A program made the translations under genes and the position numbers. The notes under the pieces are model-generated. The model had not been told where the DNA came from. It did no database searches and saw only the letters and a program-made list of their open reading frames with translations. Source: a virus (Duplodnaviria; Heunggongvirae; Uroviricota; Caudoviricetes). Taken from it: a DNA stretch of 44,080 bases. The stretch is taken from the IMG/VR virus record IMGVR_UViG_2609460218_000014, positions 1-44,080 of that record. One strand, 5' to 3'. Position 1 is the stretch's first letter, and every line of letters begins with the position of its first letter. This document shows positions 18,101 through 25,523 of the stretch, in pieces.

Positions 18101-18964
18101 ATGATCCGCAGTATGACCGCCTACGCCCGGCGTGAAATCAAGGGTGAATGGGGGAGCGCAACCTGGGAAATGCGCTCGGTAAACCAGCGTTATCTGGAAA
18201 CTTACTTTCGTCTGCCGGAGCAGTTCCGTAGCCTTGAACCTGTCGTTCGCGAGCGTATTCGTTCTCGCCTGACGCGCGGTAAAGTGGAATGTANCCTGCG
18301 CTATGAGCCAGATGTTAGCGCACAAGGTGAGCTGATCCTCAATGAAAAACTGGCTAAACAGCTGGTAACTGCCGCGAACTGGGTAAAAATGCAGAGTGAC
18401 GAAGGGGAAATCAACCCGGTTGATATTCTGCGCTGGCCGGGCGTGATGGCAGNCCAGGAGCAGGATCTCGACGCCATTGCCGCTGAAATTCTCGCGGCGC
18501 TGGATGGTACGCTGGACGACTTTATTGTCGCGCGCGAAACCGAAGGTCAGGCACTGAAAGCATTGATCGAGCAGCGTCTGGAAGGCGTCACCGCCGAAGT
18601 GGTCAAAGTCCGCGCCCATATGCCGGAAATCCTGCAATGGCAGCGTGAGCGTCTGGTCGCGAAGCTGGAAGATGCTCAGGTTCAGTTGGAAAACAACCGT
18701 CTGGAGCAGGAGTTGGTTCTGCTGGCACAACGAATTGACGTTGCCGAAGAACTGGACCGCCTGGAAGCGCATGTCAAAGAGACCTACAACATTCTGAAGA
18801 AAAAAGAAGCCGTTGGTCGTCGTCTGGACTTTATGATGCAGGAATTCAACCGCGAGTCGAACACTCTTGCGTCGAAATCTATCAATGCCGAAGTGACAAA
18901 CTCCGCCATCGAGCTGAAAGTGTTGATTGAGCAGATGCGCGAGCAGATTCAGAACATTGAGTAG
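18101..18964 (+). CDS. yicC: YicC-family stress-induced protein
   Basis: 287 aa, MIRSMTAYARREIKGEWGSATWEMRSVNQRYLE...; conserved neighbour of rph. Confidence 0.9.
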   Translation: MIRSMTAYARREIKGEWGSATWEMRSVNQRYLETYFRLPEQFRSLEPVVRERIRSRLTRGKVECXLRYEPDVSAQGELILNEKLAKQLVTAANWVKMQSDEGEINPVDILRWPGVMAXQEQDLDAIAAEILAALDGTLDDFIVARETEGQALKALIEQRLEGVTAEVVKVRAHMPEILQWQRERLVAKLEDAQVQLENNRLEQELVLLAQRIDVAEELDRLEAHVKETYNILKKKEAVGRRLDFMMQEFNRESNTLASKSINAEVTNSAIELKVLIEQMREQIQNIE

Positions 18965-19028: not shown

Positions 19029-19140
19029 ATATCACAAAGTTGCAGTTAGCATCATAAAAGCGCATATTTCTCGTGTACCCAATAGTGTCCCTATGAGGCA
19101 GAGGCATTAAGTAGATAGGGTACGCAACCAATGAGGTGAT

Positions 19141-20396
19141 ATGGGCAAGCTAACAGACATTCAGATCAAGGCCTGGATAAAGGCCGGAACAAGGTTCGAG
19201 GGTAAATCGGACGGTAACGGTTTATATTTGCGCTATCGCACTACTGACACGTCCCCATCATGGCGTTTCCGCTACCGCTTCGCTGGCAAGCCTCGTGTTA
19301 TGACAATTGGCGCGTATGGCGTTATCTCACTGGCTAAAGCCGGGAGATCACCCGAGAGCTGGCTGCTCGTGTTTCTCTGGGGTATGACGTTGCCGGTGAG
19401 AAGCAGGAGCGAAAAGCCGCATTAAAAGCCCAGTTGGAAGCCGACCAGCATGACAAAACAGTGTCCGAAGTAGCTGAAGACTATTTTAAGAAGAAAGTAC
19501 TGGGTACATGGAAACACCCCGACATCCTCCGCCGTCGTCTGGCGAAAGACATTAATCCTCGCATAGGTCAGAAAAAGGTTAAGGACGTCAAACCCCGAGA
19601 TATTGATGCCTTGCTTCAGGCCATCTTAAAACGTGGTGCGCCATCTATTGCTAATGACGTCTTGCGCTGGATACGTCGTATCTTTGACCATGCGATCAAG
19701 CTGGGGATGATTGAGGTTAACCCCGCTGCTGCCTTTGATATGAGTGACGCGGGCGGTAAGGAAACATCTCGTGAACGTTGGTTAACCAGGCAGGAACTGG
19801 TTCAATTCTTTGAAGCCATGCGAATGGCAAAAGGCTTTAGTCGTGAGAACGAGTTAACTCTAAAGCTGCTGCTGGTCACTTGCGTGAGAAAGATGGAACT
19901 GTGCGCCGCACGCTGGAGCGAGTTCGATTTAGCCAACGGCATTTGGTACTTACCGGGCGAACGCACAAAGACAGGCGACGGGATTGATATTCCACTGCCA
20001 AAACAGGCTATCGAATGGTTGGAGGAGCTGCGCCTTCTCTCTTGTAACAGCAAATGGGTATTACCTGCGCGAAAACAACAGCATCGCATGATCCCCCATA
20101 TTCAGGAAAGCACCCTACCCGTTGCGCTGGCGAAGGTTAAGCATGAGATGCCTGGTGTACCGAACTTCACTATTCACGACCTTAGGCGCACCGCACGCAC
20201 CCATCTCGAAGCGTTAGGTGTGAATCCCATTGTTGCTGAGCGTTGCCTTAATCACCGCATCAAAGGCGTCGAGGGCATCTACAACCGTCACCAATATTTA
20301 AACGAACGGCGGGAAGCGCTGGCCATGCTGGGCAACCTGATGGAAGCCTTAGAGCGTGGCGAGGAATACAACGTTCAACCATTGAGGAAAGCATGA
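19141..20396 (+). CDS. Tyrosine integrase, P4 family (arm-binding N-domain plus catalytic domain); frameshifted in this sequence
   Basis: Track ORFs 19141..19425 and 19434..20396; N-terminus KLTDIQIKAW...GNGLYLRYRTT...WRFRYRFAGK and C-terminal HDLRRTARTHL...YNRHQYLNERR are typical. One missing C in a CCC run near 19337 would restore ISLAKAREITRELAARVSLGYDVAGEKQERKAA and a single ~418-aa ORF. Confidence 0.85.
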
Positions 20397-20433
20397 TGAT
20401 TCAGTGGATAGGTTTTCAATATTGTTTTTTTGC

Positions 20434-20546
20434 CTGTCCCACGCGTCCCATCTGTCCCGTTTTGTAAAGATAAAATAAATTCAATCAGTTACGAACACTA
20501 ACATGGGACAAAACACGGGACAGGACGGGACAAATTTTTCTGTCCC
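20434..20546. repeat. Array of about 7 GGGACA/TGTCCC hexamer repeats in both orientations (putative protein-binding sites)
   Basis: Three TGTCCC-type copies at about 10-bp spacing (20434-20459), an AT-rich spacer, then three GGGACA copies at 10-12 bp spacing and an inverted pair gggacaaatttttctgtccc (20527..20546); lies between int and orf179. Confidence 0.6.
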
Positions 20547-20586
20547 GTCCTCAAATTGAATAAACAATAACCGATAAGGGCAATAA

Positions 20587-21126
20587 ATGAATGATAACAA
20601 CAGTGTCCCAACGATTACGCTTCATGACCCTAAGCCGTGGTATGAGGTAGACCCATTGGTAATAAATGCTATGGAACTGACCGGCGCATCATATGAAGAA
20701 CTTAACGCCGGGGTATCTCTGTGCGTTGACGTTTGGGACGCCGATAGTCCAAATACTTTCCTTATAAATTGCAGGATCAAATGGGTTAAATACACATATG
20801 ACCTCACAGGTTTCGCCATTGCTCGTTATTTTTGGACTAACCCTGAGAAAGACACCCTGCTAAGTGAGGTAGTTACTACTGAATATCAGCGTAGGAGAGA
20901 ATCTCTTGAGCTGGAGATAAAAAAGGAGCGGGAAAAGAACGCCGGTTACGGGAAAACAAACCCGAAAAAAGATGAGATTATTGAAGAGTTTAAATTGTGG
21001 AAAGAAAAATACCCACAAGGCAGTTGTAAACAATTTCATCAACAGCTAACACGGCAAACAAAAAGAGGGGAAAAAGTCCCTTCAGTTAGAAGCATACAAG
21101 ACTGGACGAAAATACTGCGCAATTAA
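20587..21126 (+). CDS. Hypothetical protein (179 aa), island-encoded, no family recognised
   Basis: ORF with a good SD (aaggg 8 nt upstream of ATG); acidic N-half, lysine-rich charged C-half (EIKKEREKNAGYGKTNPKKDEIIEEFKLWKEKYPQ); located between int and alpA. Confidence 0.55.
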   Translation: MNDNNSVPTITLHDPKPWYEVDPLVINAMELTGASYEELNAGVSLCVDVWDADSPNTFLINCRIKWVKYTYDLTGFAIARYFWTNPEKDTLLSEVVTTEYQRRRESLELEIKKEREKNAGYGKTNPKKDEIIEEFKLWKEKYPQGSCKQFHQQLTRQTKRGEKVPSVRSIQDWTKILRN

Positions 21127-21197
21127 AAACAACTGCGCAATTAGCTCGGTATCCTCTCAGTACGTCGCAAATAGACGCGTTCACAGAGGAATTAAAT

Positions 21198-21392
21198 ATG
21201 AAAAATGATTTTCCCTTATCTGGCTACGTTCGCCCTTCTCGGGTGAGCGAATTCCTAGATATAAGCCCGGCCACAATGTGGCGCTGGGCAGCAAAGAGTG
21301 AGTTTCCAAAAAGCCGTAAGCTGAGTTCCCGCGTAACAGTTTTTGATGCCGCAGAAATCAGACGTTGGCTGGCGGCGAAAAGTGCAGATTAA
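21198..21392 (+). CDS. alpA: AlpA-family transcriptional regulator / excisionase-like winged-helix protein
   Basis: 64 aa; VRPSRVSEFLDISPATMWRWAAKSEFPKSRKLSSRVTVFDAAEIRRWL matches the AlpA signature; SD gagga upstream. Confidence 0.85.
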   Translation: MKNDFPLSGYVRPSRVSEFLDISPATMWRWAAKSEFPKSRKLSSRVTVFDAAEIRRWLAAKSAD

Positions 21393-21407: not shown

Positions 21408-21884
21408 ATGAGCTTAATCGCTGAGATTCAAACGGCAGCATCNGGTAAGTGGCCTGCCGTGTTACGTGCTTTAGGCGTCGACGTGCCTGAAAAGCAGGCG
21501 CACATCCCTTGTCCCGTATGTGGCGGCAAAGACCGGTTTCACTTTAAACACGACGATGTAGGTTCGAGTTACTGCCGGGGGTGTAATAAGTGGCGCGACG
21601 GATTACAGCTAGCTCGAGATTGTGGGGCCTCTGTTTCTCAGATCGCCAATGCCGCTGGAATAAACACAACGCGCCACGCGCCGCTAGGCAGGCGAAAGGT
21701 CAGCTTGCCACCACACACAACTGCGTTACTGGCTGGGAAGCAGAAATTAAGGGAGCAGGGTGCAGAATGGATAAAAGTGTGGCTGGACTGTCAGGAGGCA
21801 GCAATTTTATGGCACGAATATGAAAAAAACGGCAGCCCCTTTGAGGAGAGCCGCCGTCTTTATGGACTACATAGACAACTTTAA
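21408..21884 (+). CDS. Primase-type zinc-ribbon protein (Cys-X2-Cys-X17-Cys-X2-Cys), no catalytic primase domain evident
   Basis: 158 aa; CPVCGGKDRFHFKHDDVGSSYCRGC as in primase-helicase zinc-binding domains; strong SD ggaggtg; start overlaps alpA stop. Confidence 0.7.
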   Translation: MSLIAEIQTAAXGKWPAVLRALGVDVPEKQAHIPCPVCGGKDRFHFKHDDVGSSYCRGCNKWRDGLQLARDCGASVSQIANAAGINTTRHAPLGRRKVSLPPHTTALLAGKQKLREQGAEWIKVWLDCQEAAILWHEYEKNGSPFEESRRLYGLHRQL

Positions 21885-21892
21885 TTCTTTGC

Positions 21893-21916
21893 GCTTCCCG
21901 GTTGCCCCCGGGAAGC
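21893..21916 (+). other. Perfect 9-bp stem hairpin between the zinc-ribbon gene and the helicase gene
   Basis: gcttcccgg-ttgccc-ccgggaagc with no following T-run; in the 56-bp gap between the two genes. Confidence 0.4.
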
Positions 21917-21940
21917 AAAACAACAAGGGACATAATCACC

Positions 21941-23377
21941 ATGTCAGAGAATACTGTAACTCACCTACCTCTCAAGTCAACCATGAAAGAACCGGTGTCC
22001 GGTGCGCCAGCACAGGCGGCTAAGTATGATTCTATGCCGCTGGCAAAGATGCAACCCGGCGAACGCATCGCCGCGTTTGTTGCAAAGACTGGCCGTTATT
22101 CACTTCATCGGGCAAGTGATACCTTGTACCGTTTTGATGGTGCTATCTGGCGGGCAATCAGCGATTCAGCTGTGAAAAGTGATTTAGCAGACTTCTACAT
22201 GACCCGCGGCTTTCAACCCGGTGCCAGTGTCTTTGAAAGCGACGCGCGAGCGCTGAAGATATATTCATCGACCAAACAATCTCCAGAGATGGCGGAACCA
22301 AAAGCCGGGGTAATCGCCTTTGCCAACGGCGTTTACTCAATCATAGACGGTTCATTTTCCAGCCATTGTGCGGAAAACTGGTTGCGCTCACATAACGGCA
22401 TAGACTATGCAGCAGCACTCCCCGGAGAGACACTGAGCGGCAGTGCCCCACATTTTAGCAAGTGGCTAGCGCACAATGCCGGTAATGATGAAGCGAAGGC
22501 CAAGCGGATACTGGCGGCTCTGTATATGGTTCTGACTCATCGCTACGAATGGCAGCTATACGTTGAGGTAACTGGCAAAGGTGGTAGCGGTAAGAGTGTA
22601 TTTATGTCTCTGTGCAGATTGCTATCAGGGGAAGACGGCTCAAAGGCTACAACCTTACACGCGCTGCGCGACTCAATGGCTCTAGAAACATTGATTGATG
22701 CCAGGCTCATTACCATGAGTGATCAGCCCGCATATAGCGGCGATTGTGCGAATTTAAAAGCCATTACCGGCGGTGACTCCATTTTCATCAATCCCAAGTA
22801 CAAGAAGGGGTTCGATGCGAAAATTAACGCCGTTGTAGTCGTGGCTAACAACGAACCTGCTGTATTTACTGAGCATAACGGGGGCATATCCCGCCGCCGG
22901 GTACTGTTTAAGTTTGGTGAACCGGTAGAAAGACCTGACCCTGAGTTTATGGCGAAGATAAAAACTGAATTGCCGGTAATCGTGCGTCACTTGCTCAAGG
23001 AATTGGATGATACTACCGCAAAAAGTCTGCTCATCCAGCAACGAGACTCAGAGGAATCGTTTGACGCTAAAGCGGAGGCCAGTAGCATTTACTCCTTCGT
23101 TAAACACCTGGACCCACTGCCAGCGCCTACAGGTATGCGCATGGGTGGCAAGGCATCATCCTCAAACGCGGAGCGGCCCAGAGAGTTCCTTTACCATGCG
23201 TATTTGGCATTTATGCAATACAACGGGTTCCAGAATCCACTTTCGGTTCTGAAATTCAGGCAAGCTGTTATTGCGATAATGAAAGAGCGCGGGCACGAGT
23301 TCGCGGATAAAAGGGACTCCGTTGGTCTCCGCTACAACGTGGAGTTGGCCGAATCAGCCAGCGAATGGCTTCCGTAA
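21941..23377 (+). CDS. SF3 (D5/P4-type) replicative helicase / NTPase, the C-terminal domain family of phage-plasmid primases
   Basis: Track ORF 21902..23377; likely start MSENTVTHLPL; Walker A VTGKGGSGKSVF, Walker B-like LITMSD, sensor-like VVVVANNEP; directly upstream of the iteron region. Confidence 0.8.
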   Translation: MSENTVTHLPLKSTMKEPVSGAPAQAAKYDSMPLAKMQPGERIAAFVAKTGRYSLHRASDTLYRFDGAIWRAISDSAVKSDLADFYMTRGFQPGASVFESDARALKIYSSTKQSPEMAEPKAGVIAFANGVYSIIDGSFSSHCAENWLRSHNGIDYAAALPGETLSGSAPHFSKWLAHNAGNDEAKAKRILAALYMVLTHRYEWQLYVEVTGKGGSGKSVFMSLCRLLSGEDGSKATTLHALRDSMALETLIDARLITMSDQPAYSGDCANLKAITGGDSIFINPKYKKGFDAKINAVVVVANNEPAVFTEHNGGISRRRVLFKFGEPVERPDPEFMAKIKTELPVIVRHLLKELDDTTAKSLLIQQRDSEESFDAKAEASSIYSFVKHLDPLPAPTGMRMGGKASSSNAERPREFLYHAYLAFMQYNGFQNPLSVLKFRQAVIAIMKERGHEFADKRDSVGLRYNVELAESASEWLP

Positions 23378-23397
23378 CATACTTTCAACATTAAAAG

Positions 23398-23425
23398 CTG
23401 GGGCGCATGATTGCGCCCTTTTTTA
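23398..23425 (+). terminator. Intrinsic terminator after the helicase gene
   Basis: gggcgca-tgat-tgcgccc followed by tttttt. Confidence 0.7.
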
Positions 23426-23466
23426 ATTCCATCGATAGATCAGAATATTTAGNTTTTTTTATGAAA

Positions 23467-23690
23467 GTCCTACATGTCTTACACCAAATGAAATTAAATT
23501 ATATATAACAATAAATTAGATAATGTAGGACCTTAAAAATATCCTACACAGGTCCTACATAACTCCTGCACTCGAAGCCTCGTAGTGTAGGGTTTAAGGA
23601 AGCCCCTCGCCAGTCCTACACAAGTCCTGCACTTTCTAACAAATTGTTTTAAATGATTTTTTTAATGGAGAATGTAGGAGTGTAGGACAT
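23467..23690. repeat. Iteron cluster (about 8 copies of GTCCTACA / TGTAGGAC in both orientations) next to an AT-rich stretch: putative island replication origin
   Basis: Copies at about 23467, 23523, 23543, 23552, 23585, 23613, 23672, 23681; preceded by an AT-rich segment (23440-23520); no ORF of 60 aa or more on either strand between 23378 and 24087. Confidence 0.6.
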
Positions 23691-24195
23691 GAAGGACTTT
23701 CCAGGAAAAACTATATTTTGAATATTTGAGCCTAAAAAATGGACACCCTTGCGCTACGCGCCGCTAGGCAGGGAAAGTGGTTTTCATAACATGTATTTAA
23801 CAATCGCATTCCCATTCGGAACCAGCGGGCCGGAATGATCCTGATACAGGCGTTCAGCATGGAGTGAGAATCAACGTTTTTTGATGCCCTACTGACCCCA
23901 GATTAATCTTTGGTCGGTAGCGGGAAGCCTTCGTTCTGGTCAGGGTAATGTCAGGGTGATGCTTACGTTTTATGACTATTTTAGTTAGCAATAGTTAGCA
24001 ACCTACTCAAATCAAAACTTCTCAAAGTTAATTCCTAAAACGAAAAAGCCCCCACATTTCTGTAGGGGCCGTTTCGTCATTCTGCGCTTGATGGTCGGAA
24101 GGATGGCCGACAAATATATACTATCTCTTTATGTACTCACGAACCAGTACGATAGTACAATAAGCCGTCAATTCTTCAAAATGATGGTGATAGCG

Positions 24196-24588
24196 ATGAA
24201 CGAAGTAGATTCAATTCTGGCCGAGCAGAAAAGAGCCGCAGAACAACGCCGCTTGGCTAATGAGAAGAAGCGCCATCCATCCGGCCTGTACGCCGTTGGT
24301 GATGGGTGGTATGTGAAGCAAATCGAAGAGCTTCACTCCCCGCTTGGTCTTAGCAAGGTGGTTCTGGTAAGCCCTGATGATGTTTGTGTGAGATATCAGC
24401 GCCAATATGGCAAAGCACTCACCACTGACAAATTGAAGGAATGGAGCAGGGACGGGAACTTCCCTTTGCCGCGCTCTATTAATGGGGTTATCGGTTGGGA
24501 ATCGAATGTTGTGACCAATGGCCTGAATGAACTGAGCAAAGCAGCCGGTCGAGGTTATACCAGTATTACACGAGGGTTCGCACGATGA
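24196..24588 (+). CDS. Hypothetical protein (track ORF 24088..24588, 166 aa; likely start at MNEVD giving about 130 aa), first gene of cargo cassette
   Basis: Protein-like composition; SD-like ggtgat upstream of the internal ATG; stop overlaps the next ORF start (ATGA). No family recognised. Confidence 0.5.
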   Translation: MNEVDSILAEQKRAAEQRRLANEKKRHPSGLYAVGDGWYVKQIEELHSPLGLSKVVLVSPDDVCVRYQRQYGKALTTDKLKEWSRDGNFPLPRSINGVIGWESNVVTNGLNELSKAAGRGYTSITRGFAR

Positions 24589-24782
24589 GCAAAGAATCTG
24601 TAATGGCGGCATTGAGAAAGGCGCGTGAAGGCAATATCTTTGGCGGTACTGGTCAGGCCGAATTTAACAAAAATTTTTACGCTGGCCGCGTCACCAAAAC
24701 AGATGGTGTTAGTAAGACCGACAGTAACGAGCCGATGAACCAAAAGGCATTTAATGCCCGGTTCTATGCGGGGAAATCATGA
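24585..24782 (+). CDS. Hypothetical small protein (65 aa) with internal duplicated N-x-x-F-Y-A-G-[RK] motif
   Basis: ATGA overlap with the upstream ORF and SD gaggg; NKNFYAGRV and NARFYAGKS repeat within the protein. Confidence 0.5.
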   Translation: MSKESVMAALRKAREGNIFGGTGQAEFNKNFYAGRVTKTDGVSKTDSNEPMNQKAFNARFYAGKS

Positions 24783-24841
24783 CTGAGGCATATGCGCTCT
24801 GTGTGATGCTGTACTGCTACCTGATGCTTATCTGCCCGTAA
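24779..24841 (+). CDS. Possible 20-aa hydrophobic Cys-rich peptide (MTEAYALCVMLYCYLMLICP)
   Basis: Start overlaps the ORF65 stop (ATGA), SD-like gggga upstream, followed by a hairpin terminator. Too short for any compositional statistics. Confidence 0.3.
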   Translation: MTEAYALCVMLYCYLMLICP

Positions 24842-24860
24842 CCTTCCCTCACTGCCAAGC

Positions 24861-24884
24861 GCCGCCGAAAGGCGGTTTCTTTTG
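24861..24884 (+). terminator. Putative short intrinsic terminator/attenuator after the coupled ORFs
   Basis: ccgcc-gaaa-ggcgg (GNRA-type loop) followed by tttcttttg. Confidence 0.4.
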
Positions 24885-24901
24885 ACCTGATGGAGTCTGT
24901 C

Positions 24902-25183
24902 ATGCTGAATGTGAACCGCTTGCCCAACAGCACCCGCCTACAGATTGCCGCCGCTATTGCTGAAGAGGTTTACGCGCTGGATCTGGATGATGAGGCGTTA
25001 ATTCATGAGCTGCGTCGTTATGGATTCAGCCAGGCTTATGCGGAAGCAATGACTTTCAGATTTATGACGCCAGCCTTTGAAATCGCAGATCCACGGCGCG
25101 AACGTAAAACAAAAATGCCAGCGCCCACCTCTCANCCCGAATGGGTTTTTGTTGATAATGTTTTAATGAAGATCACGGCGTGA
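24902..25183 (+). CDS. Hypothetical protein (track ORF 24890..25183, 97 aa; likely start at MLNVNRL)
   Basis: SD ggag 9 nt upstream of the second ATG; contains one N; last ORF before the island's right end. No family recognised. Confidence 0.5.
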   Translation: MLNVNRLPNSTRLQIAAAIAEEVYALDLDDEALIHELRRYGFSQAYAEAMTFRFMTPAFEIADPRRERKTKMPAPTSXPEWVFVDNVLMKITA

Positions 25184-25382
25184 CTTACACAAAATTACAA
25201 TTGGTCATAAATCACACAATAAAAATTGTAATCCCTGTAAATCCATGTACCCATACGTGTACACAAGCAAAACAAGAAAAACAAAAATCATTTAAATATC
25301 AATACATATAACCCACAATTCAATATTCAGATTCAATATTGAGTAACTCGTAACACTAATTCTTACTTTTCAGCCTTCACAA

Positions 25383-25416: not shown

Positions 25417-25503
25417 CCCCGCAACTTCAATTCTGTTTTGCGTGCCTGCTCCAGATTTTGCGATGTTTTTTTGCCCAGCACACTGAGAACGTGAGATACT
25501 CAC

Positions 25504-25523
25504 AACTGTATATAAATACAGTT
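25504..25523 (+). promoter_or_regulatory. LexA (SOS) box in the dinD promoter
   Basis: aactgtatataaatacagtt, a perfect palindrome matching the CTGT-N8-ACAG LexA consensus, about 45 bp upstream of the dinD start. Confidence 0.85.

What the first reader, a model, noticed from the sequence alone, without database searches (positions are those of the whole stretch)
20587..21126. Unrecognised 179-aa ORF between integrase and alpA
Well-formed ORF with a good SD in the slot where satellites often carry a regulator (repressor or anti-repressor) or accessory gene. Acidic N-half and lysine-rich C-half; no family identifiable by eye.
Basis: inference. Interest (0 to 1): 0.5.

Follow-up and report, generated by a model that had tools for sequence, protein, structure and literature searches.

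The report
Orphan swappable gene in mini-satellite

Summary
The ORF (20587-21126, +) is real. It has an ATG start and an AAGGG Shine-Dalgarno, an acidic N-half and a basic C-half, dN/dS of 0.2-0.3, and conserved synteny. It matches nothing in Pfam, PHROGs, NCBIfam, PADLOC, PDB sequences, phages or plasmids. Its family has five clusters among 5.8 billion proteins, all Enterobacteriaceae. Every member with recoverable context lies between an integrase and an AlpA/HTH_17 gene of a ~6.4-kb int-alpA-primase island, here inserted in the 3' end of yicC.

The slot is a cassette site. At least four unrelated families (179-283 aa) replace each other exactly at the start codon. An island 95% identical elsewhere carries a different gene plus a different alpA.

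AlphaFold gives a confident C-terminal three-helix, HTH-like domain. The N-domain fold is unknown.

The GGGACA array is not this protein's operator. It stays the same under all four cassette families. It is duplicated at the ori position of Toprim/DUF927 islands. Both copies change together to GAGACA while this protein's HTH half stays identical.

The closest analogue is the iolg/icg gene of Vibrio PICMIs, which is variable, of unknown function and needed for excision. My best guess (about 0.4) is a DNA-binding adaptor in the AlpA/Int induction switch. The main rival is anti-phage or helper-interference cargo.

The parts
18956..18963 (.). attL core copy (ATTGAGTA) at the 3' end of yicC; left end of the island
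   Evidence: Homology with the K-12 empty site ends at 18957 and resumes at 25344. The same octamer is present at both junctions.
19141..20396 (+). Tyrosine integrase (Arm-DNA-bind_3 / Phage_integrase type), split here by a 1-nt deletion (19141-19425 and 19434-20396)
   Evidence: ORFs. Intact 418-aa orthologues in L001 and L002. CCC is read as CC near 19342. Pfam domains on orthologues.
20429..20551 (.). Iteron-like array: 3 x (T)GTCCC (the middle copy reads CGTCCC), about 45 bp of AT-rich spacer, 3 x GGGACA, then 1 x TGTCCC
   Evidence: Conserved in all related islands. Duplicated after DUF927 in other islands and co-varying there.
20568..21365 (+). Exchange module: ORF179 plus almost all of alpA-1. 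This is the only segment that differs from the otherwise 95%-identical PSS-10 island.
   Evidence: blastn of the window island against L002.
20576..20580 (+). Shine-Dalgarno AAGGG, 6 nt before the ATG
   Evidence: Sequence.
20587..21126 (+). ORF179, slot family A, 179 aa plus stop
20587..20871 (+). Acidic, most conserved N-terminal domain (aa 1-95); fold not predicted with confidence
   Evidence: Alignment A3. dN/dS 0.09-0.23. pI 4.2. pLDDT below 50.
20962..21123 (+). Basic C-terminal three-helix, HTH-like domain (aa 126-179)
21109..21143 (+). Direct repeat (A)ACTGCGCAATTA x2 spanning the ORF179 stop codon; significance unknown
   Evidence: family D4.
21198..21392 (+). alpA-1 allele (AlpA / HTH_17 excisionase-like regulator)
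   Evidence: Pfam PF05930 E=2.5e-10. Allele comparison.
21408..21884 (+). Primase-helicase zinc-ribbon protein
   Evidence: PF08273 E=1.4e-8.
21902..23377 (+). D5_N / DUF5906 / Pox_D5 primase-helicase
23467..23697 (.). Putative ori of this island: about 10 GTCCTACA-type iterons around AT-rich DNA, just downstream of the primase-helicase
24088..25183 (+). Conserved right arm: three small ORFs (24088-24588, 24585-24782, 24890-25183) of unknown function
   Evidence: Present in 40 of 5,426 complete E. coli genomes.
25338..25345 (.). attR core copy (ATTGAGTA); K-12 homology resumes at 25344

Best explanation
SHOWN: ORF179 is a genuine gene of a tiny orphan family ('slot family A'). In every context recovered, the family is the first gene after the integrase and before an AlpA/HTH_17 gene of ~6.4-kb int-alpA-primase islands of Enterobacteriaceae. 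These islands are PICI/PICMI-like mini-satellites. The one in this window is inserted in the 3' end of yicC. The position is a cassette slot. At least four unrelated proteins (A 179-206 aa, B 187-221, C 204, D 283) replace one another exactly at the start codon. They do so under the same upstream region and independently of the integrase type and the replicase type. The protein has an acidic, strongly constrained N-domain, a charged helical linker, and a basic C-terminal three-helix HTH-like domain. INFERRED: it is transcribed with alpA as the first gene of the island's early operon, since no terminator lies between them. It acts as a DNA-binding adaptor in the induction/excision switch, as IOLG/ICG does in Vibrio PICMIs. 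The HTH tethers it to DNA. The N-domain contacts a partner, either a helper-phage protein or AlpA/Int. The alternative cassettes are isofunctional replacements that change partner specificity.
Confidence: 0.4

Rival explanations
1. Cargo gene of a satellite hotspot. ORF179 is an anti-phage or helper-interference factor, for example an HTH protein that misregulates phage genes as PLE CapR or SaPI Pti proteins do. It is carried for the host's or island's benefit and is not part of the excision/induction machinery.
For: Precise cassette exchange among unrelated families. Independence from the integrase and replicase types. Low GC, 42% against 49-52%. Fast-evolving, mosaic C-half. Satellites are known to carry defence hotspots, and PICMI UP2 is a defence gene (PMC9122126 listed; PMC10803314). 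EcCIMP1_002, a small gene between int and alpA of a validated E. coli PICI, was treated as an accessory gene.
Against: No PADLOC hit for families A, B or C; family D has only a marginal mad1 hit (E about 0.01) over its HTH. The slot always held a single gene of narrow size (179-283 aa), unlike typical defence hotspots, which vary widely in gene number and size. The slot was never empty in the islands examined. A second variable region that looks more cargo-like (a TM2-domain gene and others) lies after the ori in some islands.
Confidence: 0.27
2. One reading: ORF179 is the island's repressor or anti-repressor, and it binds the upstream GGGACA repeat array as its operator.
For: It lies next to the array, it has a predicted HTH-like domain, and the array has an AT-rich centre where a promoter could lie.
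Against: The same array precedes the unrelated families B, C and D. A second copy sits at the ori position after DUF927. In L055 both copies change from GGGACA to GAGACA while residues 113-198 of the family-A protein are identical to those of the GGGACA island L041; the DUF927 C-terminal region carries 28 of that protein's 38 differences.
Confidence: 0.06
3. Helper-exploitation factor for packaging or replication. This could be a TerS-like or Rpp-like protein that redirects the helper terminase, or an origin accessory protein. The different cassettes would match different helper phages.
For: The size and layout (DNA-binding domain plus helical linker) resemble small terminases. The islands encode no recognisable packaging gene. 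The cassettes vary as would be expected for helper matching.
Against: No PHROG or Pfam terminase, Rpp or replication-initiator signal. The HTH is C-terminal, whereas TerS proteins carry it N-terminally. The conserved right-arm ORFs are equally good candidates for packaging functions.
Confidence: 0.1
4. Not a functional gene: a chance or decaying ORF in an intergenic spacer.
For: No known domain. The integrase of this window copy is frameshifted, so this island copy may be decaying.
Against: Purifying selection acts on the family. Full-length homologues exist in four genera or sources with conserved synteny. The ORF has a proper SD and ATG.
Confidence: 0.02

Closest known systems
iolg / icg genes of Vibrio PICMIs (phage-inducible chromosomal minimalist islands; PMC10803314)
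   Same: A single gene of unknown function between int and alpA, on the same strand, in a ~6-kb int-alpA-primase satellite. It falls into many mutually unrelated families (13 in PICMIs, at least 4 here). No known domains.
   Different: iolg overlaps int by 1-13 nt and icg abuts it. ORF179 is separated from int by a 190-bp iteron array. PICMIs sit next to fis in Vibrionaceae, whereas this island sits in the 3' end of yicC in E. coli. Sequence relatedness was not tested, and the excision requirement is shown only for PICMI115 iolg.
SaPI Stl master repressors
   Same: They lie next to int, beside the island's control region. They are extremely diverse between otherwise similar islands. They combine an HTH with a variable partner-binding domain, and they are the helper-specificity determinant.
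   Different: stl is transcribed divergently from the early operon, carries an N-terminal HTH and binds operators that co-vary with it. ORF179 is co-oriented with alpA, its HTH-like domain is C-terminal, and the adjacent repeats do not co-vary with it.
EcCIMP1_002 of E. coli PICI EcCIMP1 (PMC11773190)
   Same: A small uncharacterised gene between the integrase and the master regulator alpA of an experimentally validated E. coli PICI.
   Different: It is much smaller (about a tenth the size of UvrB), sits in a 20-kb PICI at tRNA-Thr, and was not compared by sequence here.
P4 ori / crr iteron pair bound by the alpha primase-helicase
   Same: This comparison concerns the array, not the ORF. Two separated clusters of one short repeat occur in the same element, one after the replicase gene and one near int, and they co-vary with the replicase C-terminal region.
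   Different: In this window's island the replicase is of the D5_N/DUF5906 type with different ori iterons (GTCCTACA). The int-proximal GGGACA array is therefore unmatched here, probably as a result of recombination.
Dynamic 'Bro zone' of Gram-negative PICIs (PMC10111431)
   Same: A fast-swapping zone of domain-shuffling DNA-interactive proteins next to the int/alpA integration zone.
   Different: The Bro zone lies after alpA and holds Bro-N/KilA-N/ANT-type domains. Family A has no such Pfam signal and lies before alpA.

Membership tests
PICMI iolg/icg slot genes | Gene lies between int and alpA, co-oriented, in a small int-alpA-primase island | tested here: met
PICMI iolg/icg slot genes | Overlaps int by 1-13 nt (iolg) or is contiguous to it (icg) | tested here: not met
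   A 190-bp gap (20397-20586) holds the repeat array.
PICMI iolg/icg slot genes | Host element integrated beside fis in Vibrionaceae (the PICMI search model) | tested here: not met
   The island is in the 3' end of yicC of E. coli.
PICMI iolg/icg slot genes | Sequence homology to one of the 13 iolg/icg families | not tested
The exhaustive HMMER search found only Enterobacteriaceae relatives, which argues against close homology.
PICMI iolg/icg slot genes | Required for helper-induced excision | not testable with these tools
   Needs genetics.
Helix-turn-helix DNA-binding proteins | Three-helix bundle with HTH geometry | tested here: inconclusive
Helix-turn-helix DNA-binding proteins | Match to a curated HTH sequence model | tested here: not met
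   No Pfam or NCBIfam HTH hit for any of 6 members, even at E<=10. The only signal is P0003 against PHROG 310 (transposase), E=0.015.
SaPI Stl-type master repressor | Adjacent operator repeats co-vary with the repressor | tested here: not met
   The array is unchanged under families A-D, and it changes without any change in the family-A HTH half.
SaPI Stl-type master repressor | Divergent transcription from the early operon | tested here: not met
   ORF179 is on the same strand as alpA and the primase genes.
Known anti-phage defence proteins (PADLOC-DB 2.0) | Match to a defence-system profile | tested here: not met
   No hit at E<=1 for four family-A members or for families B and C.
Small terminase / packaging redirectors | Match to TerS or Rpp-type profiles | tested here: not met
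   No Pfam or PHROG hit.
Gram-negative PICI (the host island) | int, alpA and pri co-oriented, with ori iterons downstream of pri | tested here: met
   Definition taken from PMC10111431.
Gram-negative PICI (the host island) | Induction and packaging by a helper phage; late or packaging genes present | not testable with these tools
   No recognisable capsid or packaging gene. The helper is unknown.

The most novel reading that the evidence does not exclude
The int-alpA slot cassettes (families A-D) are the missing helper-sensing specificity determinants of Gram-negative PICI/PICMI-type satellites. Each would be a two-domain adaptor whose variable domain captures a particular helper-phage protein. 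Its HTH domain would then license the AlpA/Int switch. This would be a positive-acting functional counterpart of SaPI Stl, and it would explain how helper infection turns on the early regulon.
Probability: 0.15. Interest if true: 0.75.

Novelty: new variant of a known kind. Interest (0 to 1): 0.4.

Why it matters
It is an open question how Gram-negative PICI/PICMI satellites sense their helper phage and trigger AlpA-dependent excision; the PICMI paper poses it explicitly. The role of the variable gene between int and alpA is also unknown. These E. coli islands offer a compact natural experiment. The backbones are nearly identical (95%) and differ only in which of four unrelated about-200-aa cassettes fills that slot. 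If the cassettes set helper specificity or are needed for excision, swapping them is a direct test in a tractable host. If they are cargo, they are four new candidate single-gene anti-phage or interference factors. The work also re-assigns the conspicuous GGGACA array to the replicon as paired, co-varying iterons. That prevents a misdirected EMSA programme.

Tried and rejected
1. Sequence searches with ORF179 alone and with family profiles against Pfam, PHROGs, NCBIfam, PADLOC and PDB found nothing significant. The L23 ribosomal protein, Complex1_51K and Dickkopf hits (E 0.25-1.2) are noise.
2. The exhaustive HMMER search hit a 797-aa Cna-B/SpaA-like repeat protein (P0005, E=1.3e-7, 7 stretches). 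I judged it spurious because the score is inflated by repeats.
3. A genome-contig scan with the pattern GTCCCACGNGTCCCAYNNGTCCCG returned mostly chance matches in high-GC genomes. Only Shimwellia L036 was relevant.
4. An AlpA-based search of viral contigs found nothing. A blastn search of the array against phages found nothing.
5. Profile-profile comparisons A/B, A/C and B/C showed no homology. The 'PSVR' and 'GG..RG' resemblances I noticed by eye are unsupported.
6. My first att guess, TGTACCCA at 19074 and 25246, was wrong. No empty site matched that junction. Comparison with K-12 places the ends at 18956-18963 and 25338-25345.
7. The consensus promoter scan found no convincing sigma-70 promoter in the array. 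Rfam gave only sub-threshold noise.
8. The array folds into a stable RNA hairpin (z = -4.6). This is expected from its inverted repeats, and I did not take it as evidence for an RNA element.
9. The AF2 N-domain model has pLDDT below 50, so no fold inference was drawn from it.

Full report
OBSERVATION. An AAGGG Shine-Dalgarno lies 6 nt upstream. Upstream is a tyrosine integrase (19141-20396). Downstream are alpA (21198-21392; Phage_AlpA E=2.5e-10), a primase zinc-ribbon protein and a D5_N/DUF5906 primase-helicase. The N-half is acidic (aa 1-95, pI 4.2) and the C-terminal part is basic and lysine-rich (aa 126-179, pI 9.9). Pfam, PHROGs, NCBIfam, PADLOC and PDB sequences gave nothing, either for the single protein or for six family members.

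IS IT A GENE? Yes. Two word-indexed searches of 5.8 billion proteins and one exhaustive HMMER search of 1.84 billion representatives found five clusters: P0001 (98% identical), P0002, P0003, P0006 and P0007 (39-49% identical). All come from Enterobacteriaceae: E. coli, Enterobacter, Citrobacter and a food metagenome. Nei-Gojobori dN/dS between members is 0.20-0.29. The N-terminal 95 residues are more constrained (0.09-0.23) than the C-half (0.30-0.65). In the L041/L038 pair the N-half is almost identical (dS 0.05) while the C-half has dS 0.52, which indicates an intragenic mosaic. tblastn found no relative in 50,697 phage or 72,556 plasmid records. blastn found the gene in 6 of 5,426 complete E. 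coli genomes.

THE HOST ELEMENT. The window is E. coli chromosome (waa ... pyrE-rph-yicC | island | dinD ...). Comparison with the K-12 empty site shows that homology stops at 18957 and resumes at 25344. An ATTGAGTA octamer sits at both junctions. The island is therefore about 6.4 kb and is inserted in the 3' end of yicC, whose last codons it re-supplies. My earlier att guess was wrong. The gene order is int, ORF179, alpA, zinc-ribbon protein, primase-helicase, AT-rich iteron region, then three small conserved ORFs. About ten GTCCTACA-type repeats cluster at 23467-23697, directly after the primase-helicase, which is the canonical ori position of PICIs (PMC10111431). No capsid or packaging gene is recognisable. 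By architecture it is a minimal PICI-type satellite, closest to the Vibrio PICMIs. Those also comprise int, alpA, a DUF5906/DUF3987 primase and about 6 kb (PMC10803314). It sits at a different site in a different family of bacteria. The conserved right arm occurs once per genome in 40 of 5,426 complete E. coli genomes.

THE SLOT IS A CASSETTE SITE. Every family-A member with recoverable context lies between an integrase and an AlpA/HTH_17 gene. This holds for L003 and L038-40 at yicC. It also holds for L041-44 and L055/56 at yhbW/yhbU, where the integrase is only 24% identical and the HTH_17 protein is unrelated. Conversely, islands with the same integrase and upstream region carry other genes in the slot. 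Family B (187-221 aa) is in L002, L045, L049, L050, L052 and L057. Family C (204 aa) is in L046, L047, L048 and L051. Family D (283 aa) is in L058. BLAST and profile-profile comparisons detect no homology between A, B and C. D matches none of them.

The exchanges are precise. B and C share the 5'UTR up to the ATG, and so do A (L038) and B' (L052), and B (L057) and D (L058). The window island and the PSS-10 island are 95% identical from yicC to 20567 and from 21366 to dinD. They differ only in 20568-21365, which is ORF179 plus alpA-1 in the window and family B plus alpA-2 in PSS-10 (51% identical AlpA). Family A goes with alpA-1 in four backgrounds, and B, C and D go with alpA-2-type alleles. 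This linkage may be functional. It may also only reflect the lack of recombination homology between the two alpA alleles. Slot families are independent of replicase type: A, B and C each occur with both D5_N/DUF5906 and Toprim+DUF927 modules. ORF179 has 41.9% GC (GC3 41%), against 49-52% for the other island genes. The slot held one gene of 179-283 aa in every intact island examined.

THE GGGACA ARRAY IS NOT ITS OPERATOR. The array (20429-20551) has three (T)GTCCC copies (the middle one reads CGTCCC), an AT-rich spacer of about 45 bp, three GGGACA copies and one more TGTCCC. Three comparative results bear on it.

First, it is conserved, with 3-5 right-hand copies, upstream of all four slot families.

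Second, Toprim/DUF927-type islands carry a second array of the same design directly after the DUF927 gene, at the ori position. This is seen in L038-40, L041, L044, L053 and Shimwellia L036.

Third, in Enterobacter L055 both arrays read TGTCTC/GAGACA instead of TGTCCC/GGGACA. Compared with the GGGACA island L041, residues 113-198 of the family-A protein (the whole HTH half) are 100% identical. The HTH_17 protein and the right-arm proteins differ by 1-2 residues. The DUF927 protein has 28 of its 38 differences in residues 351-568. The same-motif pair L041/L038 has only 3 differences in that region.

The array therefore behaves as paired replicon iterons, read most plausibly by the DUF927 C-terminal region. 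This resembles the ori/crr pair of P4, which I recall from memory and did not check. In the window island the replicase is of the other type, with its own GTCCTACA iterons. The int-proximal GGGACA array is thus unmatched here, probably carried in by recombination. It may still contain the promoter of the ORF179-alpA operon, but no good sigma-70 consensus was found.

MECHANISM. The following are shown: a real gene, an orphan family, a fixed position as first gene after int and before alpA, a cassette-swapping slot, two-domain constraints and no tie to the array. The following are inferred. The gene is co-transcribed with alpA, since no + strand terminator lies between them. It acts as a DNA-binding adaptor in the induction/excision switch. 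The closest precedent is PICMI, where the gene between int and alpA belongs to 13 unrelated families of unknown function. In PICMI115 (iolg) that gene is required, together with int and alpA, for helper-induced excision. The uniform size, the single-gene content, the constant occupancy and the recurrent HTH-type domains fit isofunctional replacements better than random cargo. I therefore place this model first, at about 0.4.

The main rival (about 0.27) is that the slot is a cargo hotspot for anti-phage or helper-interference factors. Low GC, precise cassette exchange and independence from Int and Rep all fit that reading. A small gene in the same slot of EcCIMP1 was treated as accessory. The array-binding repressor idea is now unlikely (about 0.06).

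NOVELTY AND VERDICT. The kind of gene, a variable gene of unknown function between int and alpA of a minimal satellite, has been described. This family, its E. coli host element at yicC, and the four-way cassette exchange have not been described in anything I could find. I rate it a new variant of a known kind, with moderate interest (0.4). It is an orphan gene without a demonstrated function. It sits in a very clean natural swap experiment that could make the helper-sensing and excision question testable in E. coli.

Noticed in passing
window 19141-20396 (near 19342): The integrase is split into two ORFs by a 1-nt deletion in a C run (AAAGCCGGGAG here, AAAGCCCGGGAG in intact 418-aa orthologues). 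The window also contains 25 N, so this may be a sequencing error and not a true pseudogene.
   Followed up: partly
L038 7848-7957 and 12010-12119; L041, L044, L053, L036; L055 6840-6960 and 11040-11165: Toprim/DUF927-type islands carry two copies of the TGTCCC/GGGACA array, one after int and one after DUF927. In Enterobacter both copies read TGTCTC/GAGACA. This co-variation tracks the C-terminal third of the DUF927 protein and suggests a P4 ori/crr-like two-site replicon.
   Followed up: yes
window 23467-23697; L002 9140-9380: The ori-like iterons downstream of the D5_N/DUF5906 primase-helicase are GTCCTACA in the window and GTCCGTCA/GTCCATCA in the otherwise 95%-identical PSS-10 island. The replicon specificity appears to differ between near-identical islands.
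   Followed up: partly
window 21671-21692 and 23751-23772: A 22-nt direct repeat (GCGCYACGCGCCGCTAGGCAGG) lies inside the zinc-ribbon primase gene and again after the ori. The second copy coincides with the point (23753) where identity to the D72 island resumes after a divergent primase-helicase segment (22078-23753). It may be a recombination joint.
   Followed up: no
window 22078-23753 vs L001: Even the four E. coli genomes that share ORF179 at 99.6% carry a different primase-helicase and ori segment from the window. The islands are highly mosaic.
   Followed up: partly
window 21109-21143: A 12-nt direct repeat ACTGCGCAATTA spans the ORF179 stop codon. It is present only in this allele, and its meaning is unknown.
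   Followed up: no
window 21155-21185; L003 2395-2425; L038 8585-8615: A conserved small inverted repeat (GCGTCGCAAAWAGACGC) lies upstream of alpA-1 alleles only. It is absent where family A is followed by the other HTH_17 gene. It could be an alpA-1-specific regulatory site.
   Followed up: no
window 24088-24588: The conserved right-arm protein has a C-terminal stretch (KLKEWSRDGNFPLPRSINGVIGW) that looks to my eye like an AlpA/Xis-type HTH_17 motif. Pfam gave no hit.
   Followed up: no
L057 5408-6140; L058 5344-6076: Some DUF927-type islands have a second variable region between the ori array and the right arm. It carries a 146-aa protein and a TM2-domain protein, which are candidate cargo or defence genes.
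   Followed up: no
L054 (E. coli GPT21-003) and L059 (E. coli 2017-02-1CC): Degenerate or rearranged relatives exist. One is an int-less remnant at yicC with a truncated DUF927. In another, the right-arm ORFs lie in a different element with VapE and ParA near caiC.
   Followed up: no
window 25500-25520: The dinD SOS box (CTGTATATAAATACAG) is intact about 160 bp to the right of the island end, so the island does not disturb dinD regulation.
   Followed up: no
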